Positions 43,151 to 47,983 of a stretch of 64,000 nt of DNA are shown here, piece by piece. The notes beneath the pieces are model-generated. The model saw only the letters and a list, made by a program, of their open reading frames with translations. It had not been told where the DNA came from and did not search any database. The position numbers and the translations under genes were made by a program. Source of the stretch: Perkinsus olseni (Eukaryota); assembly GCA_013115125.1 (NCBI GenBank), contig JABANN010000104.1, positions 1-64,000 of the forward strand, written 5' to 3'. Position 1 is the stretch's first letter. Each line of letters begins with the position of its first letter.

Positions 43151-44637
43151 TCACCATCGATTGAGGTTATCCAGAATAAATGGAGCGAAGTAGGTAATAA
43201 TAACCTAACAGCGAAGGCTTCACAAAAGTCGACAAGTGCAACAGAACTCACTGTAGCCCCAGCCCTGAGTAGCGAGATATGGGCTTCTCGAACAACTGCG
43301 TTCATATCCCCCGTTGCCTGGCCGTAGTCGTAGAGCATTTTATACCTACAAGTTGTAGGCTACAACCGAGTGTAATGAGAGGAAAATAGACTGCGTGACT
43401 ACAGCCTTACTCTCCACTAACTACATAGGCCACAATGGGGATGTTACAGGATTCCTTGAACTGGCGTATGATGTCCCCGTAAAACAGGCACGGCTTGACA
43501 ATTGCCATGTCAGCACCTAGGCATGACGGATAGTCTTGCCAATAGGACACACCGAAAGCAGCGGAACCCAAGGTACTACCTTCAGCAAGATCACGCTCCA
43601 ACGATCGCATAGCAATGGACGATGAGCCAACTGGGTGCTGATAGCGCTTGCGGTCACCCTTGAAGGTCGAGTCAACAGCATCACGGAAAGGGGCATACCT
43701 AGGGGATTGATACAGTGAAAGCTCTAGAGCAGCTTGTCTCTTAGCGCTTACATGACACTGGCCTTTTTACTCGTATAAGACATGATCTGCACATGCTCAT
43801 AGCCGTGGGAATCAAGGCTATCGCGAATAGTCGCCACGCGGGAGTCCATCATATCCGATGGGCAAACAACATCCGCGCCAGCCATGGCATACTTCAATGC
43901 GATATCCGCAAGCCGACAAACCGTGCGCTTATTGTCGATACCTGTGGGAGTCTATGATGGTAAGTCTACGACTAATGTATTACATTCCTCTCCATTCACG
44001 GTCCTCAGGATACCACAGTGCCCATGCGACGTATATTCGCACATGCATACGTCTGCTAAAACACACATACTCGATAGCTCTCGGTGTGACCTGACCAGGG
44101 AACTCTAAGTAATAACCATCAATGATACTGACATTTTTACTTGATGACTTTGATACACTCAACAACTGGGCATGTATCAGCATCAGCCATACCAGCACGA
44201 GGGTCCTTATCCTCTACCACGCCAAATAACCTACACATACAATCTCGTATACCCAATAATGATCTACACAATGTGCTGATAATACTACATGACATGCCTC
44301 AAACCCTTCTTCTCCAGCTCCCTGAGCTCATCAATAAGCCCAGGGTAGCTTCCATCAGCACCTCGGCCATATTGCATATTGGGACTAAATAGAACAGCCA
44401 CTGAACGTCGGAATAATTATAACGATGACGACGACCCCATTATTACCTAAAACCTGGTATCTCCTTATCTTCAACCTTGAGTGTTACAAAAACAGGCCAT
44501 ATGAGCTGAGACGAGTGAATATGAGGTTCTAGCCATTCCCGACATGCAGGATGGAATAGTGATGCATGTAGTTTGGTGCGAGGTAAGGCGGCCACAGCAG
44601 GGGCAGTAGCAGTAGATGAGGAATTGGGGCAAGACAT
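43151..44637 (-). CDS. ALAD: Porphobilinogen synthase (delta-aminolevulinic acid dehydratase), Zn-binding type
   Basis: KLHASLFHPACREW...LIWPVFV, LADVCMCEYTSHGHCG, PSDMMDSRV, MSYTSKKAS.MYAPFRDA, DRKRYQ, GADMAIVKP, VAYVVSGEY and RAGATVIITYF. Confidence 0.95.
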
Positions 44638-44746
44638 GATATCGCAGGGACAACAAGGAATCCACAAAACTGTAAGGAATAAATTGATCGTAGAACGGCT
44701 AAGCAGAACGCGTGTTTAATAGTAGATCTCTCATGAGTTTCAAGAA

Positions 44747-44809
44747 CGCTCCCAGGATCGTATTATACACGTTAAATCCAATCCTGGGAGCGCTCCTGAT
44801 TTCCAGGAG
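44747..44809. other. Inverted repeat pair / tandem hairpins in the ALAD-snoRNA divergent region
   Basis: CGCTCCCAGGAT (44747-44758) and ATCCTGGGAGCG (44781-44792) form a perfect 12-bp inverted repeat, followed directly by CTCCTG-atttc-CAGGAG. Confidence 0.6.
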
Positions 44810-44979
44810 AGACAGTCTATTCAACACCCCCAGATTATCGTAGGCTGAGTGCGGAGCTAGAAAATAGTGATATCTTTATGCGCATCGCTCCGCCCGATCG
44901 TCGGTTTTGCACGCATGCGCATACTTAATCGATTGCACTGTAGCTTGGAATTGATGAAACCCCATTCGAAATGATGTCA

Positions 44980-45062
44980 AGTGATAATGATGATAACAAT
45001 AATTATACTTAGACATGCATCCGAAGTCTAATGTGGAAAACATACCTAACGTCTGAATTACT
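44980..45062 (+). ncRNA. Box C/D snoRNA with an 18-nt antisense element to the 5' region of 18S rRNA
   Basis: Box C ATGATGA at 44987-44993. Guide TTATACTTAGACATGCAT (45003-45020) is the exact complement of conserved 18S AUGCAUGUCUAAGUAUAA. D' CCGA 45021-45024, degenerate C' ATGTGGA, box D CTGA 45053-45056, terminal stem AGTGAT/ATTACT. Confidence 0.88.
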
Positions 45063-45092
45063 GCTTTTGCTTAGTATTATCATCTGTACTGC

Positions 45093-45191
45093 TGCTAATG
45101 ATGAGAAACGGTATCATCCTTGCCCTGACTACTACCCTAAGGGTGGGCCATTTGATGATAAAATCCTTGTCATGCATCACCATCTGAAGCA
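45093..45191 (+). ncRNA. Box C/D snoRNA, snR55/SNORD33-like 18S Um1269 guide with a second guide matching U6 snRNA
   Basis: Terminal stem TGCT/AGCA, C ATGATGA 45098-45104, D' CTGA 45125-45128, C' TTGATGA 45152-45158, D CTGA 45184-45187. D guide GTCATGCATCACCA pairs 14 bp (2 GU) with 18S UGGUGGUGCAUGGC. D' guide TCATCCTTGC pairs with U6 GCAAGGAUGA. Confidence 0.92.
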
Positions 45192-45246
45192 ATCATTGAA
45201 TTCTTTCTAACGATTTGTACGTCAAGTTGACAGGACGCTGTCTAAC

Positions 45247-45470
45247 AGGGAACGTCGGTGGAGCATCGACCTATCGGTGTTGTGCTGGTTTTAGCCTATC
45301 GAGGCCGGAACATATTAGAGCACCGATTAGATCCCTTCTCAGCTCTGCTGTAGGCATGGTTAGCAATAGTGTAAATCACTGTTTACATAGCTCAAAAGCG
45401 AGGTGAACGGATTGGTAACCGTGCCTAGTATCCCAGCAGGGCCCGGGGTGACTAAGGCAGCCCCCCTCTC
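45247..45470 (+). ncRNA. Unassigned highly structured RNA candidate
   Basis: Several long stems with G-U pairs that work only on the + strand (detailed in findings). No family recognised. Confidence 0.45.
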
Positions 45471-45954
45471 AAGCATCATGGGTATCACTCTCAATGAACT
45501 ATCGACTGAGAGTCCGTGATCTGCGGGTCAACAACCTTCGATAAATTCCCGACAACTCCAACAGTTCAACGCGACAACGCAGTGACCATGGAAAGGATGA
45601 GAAGGCACAACACGCACAACTAAAATCGTGCTTTCCTTCATCTAACAGTCGGTCAGCAGTGGTGACAAGAGCGATACTCAAGTCAAACAAGATAAACGGT
45701 CGCCGCCGTGACTACTGGTAGGAGCAATAAAGCGGGCCGGCGTTTACATACCGTCCTTGAAATACTGCATACCAACGACGTATCAAGGACACCAATGGAC
45801 TACACCAGATGGGTAGCAAGAGGAACAATGATAGATGTGTTAACAACCTGAAGCTATCATCCAGAAAACTGAAGTGTACTATTATCATCACAGAAATCGG
45901 AAAATAGAGAAACGTGAATATAAATCTGATCCAGCATATGAATGAATCTTCTTT

Positions 45955-47983
<2,029 letters not shown>

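What the first reader, a model, noticed from the sequence alone, without database searches (positions are those of the whole stretch)
45093..45191. Dual-target C/D snoRNA predicted to methylate both 18S rRNA U1269 and U6 snRNA A70
Seen: canonical C, D', C' and D boxes with a terminal stem. The D guide pairs over 14 bp with the conserved 18S segment, and the +5 rule places the target on U1269 (yeast numbering). That is the established snR55/SNORD33 site, which argues the RNA is real. The D' guide TCATCCTTGC pairs over 10 contiguous bp with U6 G67-A76 (human numbering), plus 2 more bp after one mismatch. The +5 rule lands on A70, an established 2'-O-methylated position in the internal stem-loop of vertebrate U6. 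Inference: one RNA couples ribosome and spliceosome modification. Dual rRNA/U6 guides have precedent (SNORD10), but I do not know this particular pairing. Target sequences are recalled conserved sequences, not this organism's own.
Basis: partly seen in the sequence, partly recalled or inferred. Interest (0 to 1): 0.8.

Follow-up and report, generated by a model that had tools for sequence, protein, structure and literature searches.

The report
snR55-type snoRNA with extra U6-matching guide
This is a real, abundantly expressed small nucleolar RNA of the ancient snR55/SNORD33 family that guides a methyl mark on 18S ribosomal RNA, and unlike its sampled relatives it carries a second, well-formed guide that matches the catalytic stem-loop of U6 spliceosomal RNA, though that second target could not be tested against this organism's own U6.

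Summary
At 45093-45191 (+) there are exact C, D', C' and D boxes, a 4-bp terminal stem and an internal hairpin. This four-box layout occurs once in the window and in 4 of 200 shuffles.

The D guide with its D box is identical over 17 nt to the Rfam snR55/Z10 consensus. It pairs over 14 bp with the published conserved 18S region 1266-1290, with the +5 position on T1269.

RNA-type contigs cover 45116-45189 at depth 3715-5980 against about 160 beside it. One runs straight into a sequencing adapter after 45189, which marks a 3' end 2 nt past the D box.

The D' guide pairs over 10 contiguous bp, plus 2 after one mismatch, with mammalian U6 66-85 (-18.7 kcal/mol). The +5 position falls on the A70 equivalent, a known human Nm site (PMC5855946).

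None of 88 distinct metagenomic snR55-type homologues has this guide or an exact C-D'-C' layout. It is therefore a lineage-specific addition at most.

This organism's U6 and rRNAs, and close relatives, could not be obtained. The U6 target remains a prediction, at about 50%. Fungal snoRNAs that guide both rRNA and U6 are already described, so this is a new variant of a known kind.

The parts
45093..45189 (+). Mature box C/D snoRNA, snR55/Z10/SNORD33 orthologue. The 5' end is inferred from the terminal stem; the 3' end was observed.
   Evidence: Rfam snosnR55 match at 45094-45189 (21 bits, below the gathering score of 50, E 2.4). RNA-type contigs cover 45116-45169 (depth 3715) and 45140-45189 (depth 5980). 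Adapter letters follow directly after 45189.
45093..45096 (+). 5' half of the terminal stem (TGCT)
   Evidence: Pairs with AGCA 45188-45191.
45099..45104 (+). C box TGATGA
45110..45124 (+). D' antisense element. The core TCATCCTTGC at 45114-45123 is antisense to the U6 motif GCAAGGAUGA. Position 5 is T45120.
   Evidence: 10 contiguous bp plus 2 bp with mouse U6 66-85, -18.7 kcal/mol. Absent from 104 homologous matches.
45125..45128 (+). D' box CTGA
45134..45144 (+). Internal hairpin ACCC-TAA-GGGT between D' and C'
45153..45158 (+). C' box TGATGA
45169..45183 (+). D antisense element to 18S. Position 5 is A45179, opposite T1269.
   Evidence: Identical to the Rfam snR55 consensus. 14 bp with the published 18S region 1266-1290, -24.2 kcal/mol.
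45184..45187 (+). D box CTGA
45188..45191 (+). 3' half of the terminal stem (AGCA). Only 45188-45189 are retained in the mature RNA.
   Evidence: The adapter junction after 45189 is.

Best explanation
The locus encodes an abundant box C/D snoRNA of about 96 nt, the orthologue of yeast snR55, plant Z10/snoR34 and human SNORD33.

Shown:
- The box anatomy.
- Identity of the D guide to the family consensus.
- Expression, with a defined 3' end.
- Complementarity of the D' element to a mammalian U6 segment.

Inferred:
- With fibrillarin/Nop1 bound at the C/D motif, the D guide pairs with 18S rRNA and directs 2'-O-methylation of the U1269 equivalent.
- In this lineage the RNA has gained exact D' and C' boxes, brought together by a small hairpin, and a new D' guide.
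- That guide pairs with the 3' side of the U6 internal stem-loop (GCAAGGAUGA) and directs 2'-O-methylation of the A70 equivalent while U6 passes through the nucleolus.
- So one RNA serves both the ribosome and the spliceosome.
- The sequence of this organism's U6, and actual methylation at either site.
For: 1. Anatomy beyond chance: one match in the window, against 4 of 200 shuffles with any match.
2. Family identity: the 17-nt D guide plus D box equals the Rfam snR55 consensus. It forms 14 bp with 18S 1266-1279, with +5 on T1269. The N. crassa homologue CD34 is listed with the single target 18S-Um1265 and the homologues snR55/snoR34/U33 (PMC2780460, Table 1).
3. Expression: in run X7, contigs over 45116-45189 have depth 3715-5980 against about 160 for the flank. 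Illumina adapter letters start right after 45189.
4. D' guide:
- The D' and C' boxes are exact.
- Guide positions 2-11 form 10 contiguous Watson-Crick bp, with 2 more after one mismatch, giving -18.7 kcal/mol with mouse U6 66-85.
- That energy lies in the range reported for accepted fungal U6 guides, mean -13.8 and -18.1 kcal/mol (PMC5824354).
- +5 falls on the A70 equivalent, one of eight Nm sites of human U6 (PMC5855946).
5. Empirical null: in 88 distinct homologous snoRNAs the longest stretch shared with the U6 antisense is 7 nt (once) and 6 nt (10 times), against 10 here.
6. Precedent: fungal C/D RNAs predicted to guide both rRNA and U6, namely CD11/snR53 and CD_54 (PMC2780460, PMC5824354).
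Against: - This organism's U6 and rRNAs were never seen. The target sequence used is mammalian.
- S. cerevisiae U6 has no 2'-O-methyl groups (PMC5855946).
- An A. fumigatus screen of 27 C/D snoRNAs found none targeting U6, though it lists no snR55 homologue (PMC2377427).
- 0 of 104 homologous matches (88 distinct) carry the D' guide.
- The Rfam score is below the gathering threshold (21 against 50 bits), and the whole-window gathering scan found nothing.
- The 5' 20 nt of the RNA, and therefore most of the D' guide, is not covered by the RNA contigs.
- Run X7 is labelled RNA only by a guess.
Confidence: 0.5

Rival explanations
1. It is an snR55 orthologue whose D' guide is functional but aimed at another RNA. 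Candidates are a lineage-specific site in 26S or 18S rRNA, or another small RNA. The U6 match would then be a by-product of the short, common motif AAGGAUGA.
For: - The exact D'/C' boxes argue for a working second guide but do not name its target.
- Lineage-specific second rRNA targets are common in fungal C/D families: 14 of 68 families, according to PMC5824354.
- From memory only, both yeast 18S and 25S contain CAAGGAUG, an 8-bp match in the same register.
- GCAAGGATGA itself occurs twice more in the window by chance.
Against: - The recalled rRNA matches are only 8 bp with mismatches on both sides, and they lie at sites not known to be methylated.
- A 10-bp match in a fixed register to about 6 kb of canonical targets has a chance of roughly 0.6% (my estimate).
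- The U6 site hit is a known Nm site in vertebrates (PMC5855946).
Confidence: 0.2
2. It is an snR55 orthologue that guides only 18S Um1269. The D' element would then be non-catalytic: a structural spacer, an accessory or chaperone pairing, or a young guide-like sequence that directs no methylation.
For: - The family is a single-guide family elsewhere. N. crassa CD34 has one target (PMC2780460).
- 0 of 88 homologues have an exact C-D'-C' layout.
- The 5' part of the D' element (UAUCAUC) is complementary to the C' box region (GAUGAUA) in the predicted fold.
- No methylation data exist.
Against: - Exact D' and C' boxes with 20- and 25-nt spacers and a bridging hairpin are what a working second guide needs. 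They would not be kept without selection.
- The fold is not better than shuffles (z = -0.79), so the internal pairing has no statistical support.
Confidence: 0.26
3. It is not a functional RNA, only a chance arrangement of box-like motifs or a decaying pseudogene.
For: - The Rfam score is below threshold.
- There is no significant fold.
Against: - The D guide is identical to the family consensus.
- The box layout is expected 0.02 times per window.
- The contigs are very deep, with a precise adapter-joined 3' end 2 nt after the D box.
Confidence: 0.03

Closest known systems
snR55 (S. cerevisiae) / Z10-snoR34 (plants) / SNORD33-U33 (human) / N. crassa CD34; Rfam RF00472, clan CL00054
   Same: - Box C/D RNA whose D guide CAUGCAUCACCAU plus CUGA is identical to the family consensus.
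- Same 18S site: U1269 in yeast numbering, Um1265 in N. crassa (PMC2780460).
   Different: - It is about 96 nt, against about 69 nt for N. crassa CD34 and about 70 nt for most metagenomic homologues.
- It has exact D' and C' boxes, a bridging hairpin and a second antisense element, which 0 of 88 sampled homologues have.
- It lies between genes next to another candidate snoRNA, not in an intron as in N. crassa.
- It scores below the Rfam gathering threshold.
N. crassa CD11 / snR53 family (CD_11)
   Same: A fungal C/D snoRNA predicted to guide both rRNA and U6 methylation (18S-Am793, 26S-Am356, U6-Am47; PMC2780460). The U6 interaction is reported as conserved outside Saccharomycetaceae (PMC5824354).
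   Different: - It is a different family and targets a different U6 site, near the ACAGAGA box rather than the internal stem-loop.
- In CD11 the same D' element is proposed to serve both 18S and U6. Here the two targets use separate guides.
Pezizomycotina family CD_54 (Nc_CD_54)
   Same: A D' guide with conserved pairing to U6 across Pezizomycotina, mean -18.1 kcal/mol (PMC5824354).
   Different: Its target, written 'U6-70', is an alignment column equal to N. crassa U6-55. By my count that is the last A of ACAGAGA (human A47), not human A70. The family is unrelated.
Mammalian U6 guides: mgU6-77/SNORD10 and Snord23
   Same: - SNORD10 is recalled, not checked here, as guiding both U6 C77 and a 28S site.
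- Mouse Snord23 was proposed from chimeric eCLIP as the guide for U6-A70, with high methylation at that site (PMC11863803).
   Different: - The RNA families are unrelated.
- The Snord23-U6 interaction fell below that study's significance cut-off.
- Nothing links either to the snR55/SNORD33 family.

Membership tests
Box C/D snoRNA | C box (RUGAUGA) near the 5' end and D box (CUGA) near the 3' end, flanked by a short terminal stem | tested here: met
   ATGATGA 45098-45104, CTGA 45184-45187, and TGCT/AGCA 4-bp stem. The layout occurs once in the window, against a shuffle mean of 0.02.
Box C/D snoRNA | Stable small RNA of about 70-120 nt with ends a few nt outside the boxes | tested here: met
   Contigs of depth 3715-5980 over 45116-45189, against about 160 in the flank. 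The adapter junction after 45189 lies 2 nt past the D box. The 5' end was not observed, and the run's RNA label is a guess.
Box C/D snoRNA | Assembly with Snu13, Nop56, Nop58 and fibrillarin | not testable with these tools
   Needs immunoprecipitation or CLIP.
snR55/Z10/SNORD33 (RF00472) | Guide next to the D box that is antisense to 18S around U1269, with +5 on that U | tested here: met
   17 of 17 identity to the consensus. 14 bp with the published 18S region 1266-1290, +5 on T1269. This organism's own 18S was not available.
snR55/Z10/SNORD33 (RF00472) | Score at or above the Rfam gathering threshold | tested here: not met
   21.0 bits against 50. Nothing was found in the gathering scan. The shortfall comes from the divergent, longer C-to-C' interior.
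U6 methylation-guide snoRNA (mgU6 type) | At least about 10 bp antisense to U6 directly upstream of D or D', with a known or demonstrable Nm at +5 | tested here: inconclusive
   10 bp plus 2 bp against mouse U6 66-85, taken from a printed primer. +5 falls on the A70 equivalent, which is Nm in human (PMC5855946). This organism's own U6 sequence and its methylation were not available.
U6 methylation-guide snoRNA (mgU6 type) | Guide conserved among related species | tested here: inconclusive
   0 of 104 homologous matches carry it, but none is a close relative. Scans of genome contigs and viral contigs gave no relatives.

The most novel reading that the evidence does not exclude
An ancient single-guide snoRNA family (snR55/SNORD33) has, in one fungal lineage, evolved a complete second C'/D' module from scratch. 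That module installs the Am70-equivalent mark in the catalytic stem-loop of U6. It would be the first identified guide for this U6 site outside mammals, and it would have arisen independently of the mammalian candidate Snord23. This would imply that the U6 stem-loop methylation is old while its guides turn over.
Probability: 0.4. Interest if true: 0.55.

Novelty: new variant of a known kind. Interest (0 to 1): 0.4.

Why it matters
U6 forms the catalytic centre of the spliceosome. Its stem-loop methylations affect splicing fidelity in mammals, yet the guide for A70 has only recently and tentatively been assigned, to Snord23.

A fungal guide for the same position, grafted onto a conserved rRNA guide, would matter in three ways:
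- It would give a genetically tractable way to remove this one mark and test what it does.
- It would show how snoRNAs gain new targets, by creating an exact C'/D' pair.
- It would add evidence that fungi other than budding yeast methylate U6.

If the D' element turns out to be inactive or aimed at rRNA, the locus is simply an unusually long snR55 orthologue.

Tried and rejected
**No route to this organism's own RNAs**
- No whole genome is held for the window.
- Metagenome loci cannot be extended through the genome search.
- The U6 family search on a handle, with its 14 control genomes, found nothing anywhere. This says nothing about absence.

**Search for a U6 gene**
- A motif screen of all held loci found none.
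- A viral-contig scan for ACAGAGA-N15-25-GCAAGGATGA gave 56 loci, all ordinary chance matches by eye.

**Search for close relatives**
- The genome-contig scan gave one hit, inside a Bacillaceae coding region and not a snoRNA.
- The viral-contig scan gave none.
- The metagenome pattern allowed at most 66 nt between a TGATGA and the D guide. This RNA has 65, so slightly longer relatives would have been missed.

**Leads dropped**
- L097 looked architecturally similar, but it starts with C4A4 telomere repeats. It is a ciliate nanochromosome, not a relative.
- L020 and L060 carry TCATCACCTTGCCCTG just after an intron 5' splice site upstream of their snR55 homologue. I found no functional reading and treat it as chance.
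- I considered synteny with the A. fumigatus pair Afu-34/Afu-438 (PMC2377427). I dropped it because the upstream RNA here does not carry the snR61 guide.
- I considered 'extra base-pairing' of the C-D' spacer with 18S next to the U1269 target. Only 5 bp pair, and they overlap the main duplex.

**Uninformative results**
- RNA contigs leave 44836-45103 uncovered in all four runs. No conclusion is drawn, including for the upstream candidate snoRNA.
- The loose-end letters after 44671 are not in the window.
- A protein search for a taxon gave a single hit, labelled Perkinsus, at 69% identity. No taxon was assigned.
- The promoter/terminator scan is of bacterial type and uninformative here.
- Literature searches for a printed fungal U6 sequence failed, and PMC100344 is not held.

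- Supplements were closed. Supplemental Table S14 of PMC5824354, on lineage-specific targets per family, could already list this interaction.

Full report
**What is there**

The window behaves like a eukaryote, probably a filamentous ascomycete. That taxon is an inference from three things: no prokaryotic genome is held for it, GC is 45-53%, and RNA contigs show GT..AG introns of about 62 nt in the neighbouring genes.

At 45093-45191 on the + strand the sequence reads, in order (coordinates recounted):
- TGCT, the 5' half of the stem
- AA
- TGATGA, the C box, 45099-45104
- a 20-nt spacer
- CTGA, the D' box, 45125-45128
- the hairpin ACCC-TAA-GGGT
- TGATGA, the C' box, 45153-45158
- a 25-nt spacer
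- CTGA, the D box, 45184-45187
- AGCA, the 3' half of the stem

The four-box layout occurs once in both strands of the 64-kb window. It appeared in only 4 of 200 dinucleotide shuffles, mean 0.02. The single-strand fold is unremarkable (z = -0.79), as expected for this RNA class.

**Family**

The whole-window Rfam scan at gathering thresholds found nothing. A permissive scan of 43500-47000 gave 8 weak matches. Among them was snosnR55 (snR55/Z10) at 45094-45189, with 21.0 bits against a gathering score of 50 and E = 2.4. The score is low because the interior differs. The 17 nt CAUGCAUCACCAUCUGA, which is the D guide plus the D box, are identical to the family consensus.

I laid this guide on the conserved 18S region 1266-1290 printed in Table 1 of PMC3940700. 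It forms 14 pairs, 12 Watson-Crick and 2 G-U, at -24.2 kcal/mol, with guide position 5 opposite T1269. The N. crassa survey lists its homologue CD34 (69 nt) with the single target 18S-Um1265 and the homologues snR55, snoR34 and U33 (PMC2780460, Table 1 seen through passages). I therefore file the RNA as an snR55/SNORD33 orthologue, noting that the Rfam threshold is not met.

**Expression**

One search found 20 public runs holding part of 44300-46300. I laid four of the 20 runs, X7, X10, X19 and X20.

In X7 (labelled RNA by a guess, same organism code as the likely source) two short contigs cover the RNA:
- 45116-45169, at depth 3715
- 45140-45189, at depth 5980

The contig that runs on into the flank has depth about 160. 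One record continues directly after 45189 with the letters AGATCGGAAGAGCGTCGTGTAG, which I recognise as an Illumina adapter. Many molecules therefore ended exactly 2 nt after the D box, as for a mature C/D snoRNA.

The other three runs show only the neighbouring mRNAs. The first 20 nt or so of the RNA are not covered, and contigs cannot show the strand.

**The second guide**

Counting back from the D' box, positions 1-15 are 45124 down to 45110. I took a U6 segment from a source I could cite: the reverse complement of the mouse U6 qPCR primer printed in PMC11863803, which corresponds to U6 66-85. The pairing is as follows:
- Positions 2-11 form 10 contiguous Watson-Crick pairs, -16.3 kcal/mol for the 10-mer alone.
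- After one A-C mismatch, positions 13-14 pair again, giving -18.7 kcal/mol in all.
- Position 5 lies opposite the second A of GCAAGG. By my recalled count of the U6 sequence this is A70 in human numbering.

The U6 review (passages of PMC5855946) lists A70 among the eight ribose-methylated positions of human U6. The same review says S. cerevisiae U6 is not 2'-O-methylated, and that many of the marks are conserved in plants and S. pombe. The energy lies within the range reported for accepted fungal U6 interactions, means of -13.78 and -18.10 kcal/mol (PMC5824354, section 25 read in full).

**Is the match more than chance, and is it conserved?**

One metagenome scan used the pattern TGATGA-N36-66-CATGCATCACCATCTGA. 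It returned 101 loci with 104 matches, of which 88 are distinct. They come from fungi and many other eukaryotes.
- None of the 104 carries ATCATCCTTGCC, even allowing two mismatches, within the snoRNA.
- None of the 88 has an exact C-D'-C' arrangement.
- The longest exact stretch their interiors share with the U6-antisense primer is 3 nt (1 sequence), 4 (44), 5 (32), 6 (10) and 7 (1), against 10 in the window's RNA.

So the match is not what snR55-type interiors give by chance. Equally, the guide is not an ancestral feature of the family. Close relatives were not found, and the scan's gap limit may have excluded slightly longer versions. Short-range conservation is therefore untested.

**What could not be tested**

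This organism's U6 and rRNAs were unobtainable. That leaves three open points:
- Whether the native U6 carries GCAAGGAUGA. From memory, S. pombe, plants and animals keep CAAGGAUGA and budding yeast has UAAGGAUGA. A 2026 paper warns that the snoRNA-pairing parts of the stem-loop vary between higher and lower eukaryotes (PMC13109388).
- Whether an rRNA site fits better. From memory only, yeast 18S and 25S each contain CAAGGAUG, 8 bp in register, at sites not known to be modified.
- Whether any methylation occurs.

**Known context**

RNAs that guide both rRNA and U6 are described in filamentous fungi:
- N. crassa CD11/snR53 is predicted to guide 18S-Am793, 26S-Am356 and a U6 site.
- Family CD_54 has a conserved D' guide to 'U6-70'. 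That is an alignment column equal to N. crassa U6-55, which by my count is the human A47 equivalent and not A70 (PMC2780460; PMC5824354).

An A. fumigatus screen found no U6-directed C/D RNA among 27, but it lists no snR55 homologue either (PMC2377427). In mouse, Snord23 was proposed as the U6-A70 guide (PMC11863803).

My searches and the passages read turned up no paper that links the snR55/SNORD33 family with U6. The supplementary tables of PMC5824354 were closed and could hold such a prediction.

**Verdict**

The U6 A70-equivalent target is the best available reading of a well-formed, lineage-specific second guide. It is still a prediction against a foreign U6, which I put at about 0.5. The rivals are another target (0.2), a non-catalytic element (0.26) and an artefact (0.03). 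This is a new variant of a known kind, of moderate interest.

Noticed in passing
window 44982-45059 (+): A second candidate box C/D snoRNA lies 34 nt upstream. It has C box TGATGA 44988-44993, D box CTGA 45053-45056 and a possible D' box CCGA 45021-45024. Rfam gives only weak matches: snR61/Z1/Z11 at 26.9 bits (E 0.34) and snoR26 at 18.8 bits. Its guide is not the snR61 guide. The spacer 45003-45020 is antisense to the 18-mer ATGCATGTCTAAGTATAA, which 44 papers print together with '18S' (search listing only). I recall that 18-mer as 18S nt ~51-68. N. crassa CD4 targets nearby 18S-Cm49 (PMC2780460). No RNA contig covers the candidate, so its expression is unknown.
   Followed up: partly
window 44712-44827: A palindromic element with 53-nt arms that are 74% complementary and 10 nt apart. 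It gave a weak mir-1784-like hairpin match. RNA contigs from two runs match its core with 4-5 differences and continue with unrelated letters on both sides. That suggests a dispersed MITE-like repeat with copies elsewhere in the genome.
   Followed up: partly
window 44300-44671 (-): A very highly expressed spliced gene on the minus strand, with intron 44385-44446. Its contig depth is 3891 in X7, and it is present in all four runs laid. The open frame is Cys-rich. It diverges from the snoRNA pair, so the roughly 300-bp interval may hold a shared promoter region.
   Followed up: no
window 45631-46700 (-): A spliced minus-strand gene with intron 46178-46238, encoding EF-hand motifs. It converges on the snoRNA. 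In X7 one contig runs from 45160 through this gene, so either snoRNA read-through or a long 3' UTR covers 45190-45630.
   Followed up: no
L020 8458-8480 and L060 (minus strand), metagenome loci: In two related fungal contigs the host intron of the snR55 homologue begins GTATTT/GTATGT and continues CATCACCTTGCCCTG. This resembles the window's D' guide plus D' box with one inserted base, but it lies about 45 nt upstream of the C box. I have no explanation; it may be chance.
   Followed up: partly
L097 1-260: A metagenome contig that starts with C4A4 telomere repeats, which is ciliate nanochromosome style. It carries an snR55-type snoRNA with an exact D' box and internal hairpin, followed by further C/D-like units.
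   Followed up: no
window 45813-45896 (-): A weak snR61-like match at 19.6 bits, E 8.8, with a GTGATGA box but no clear D box. It lies inside the transcribed region of the EF-hand gene and is probably chance.
   Followed up: no
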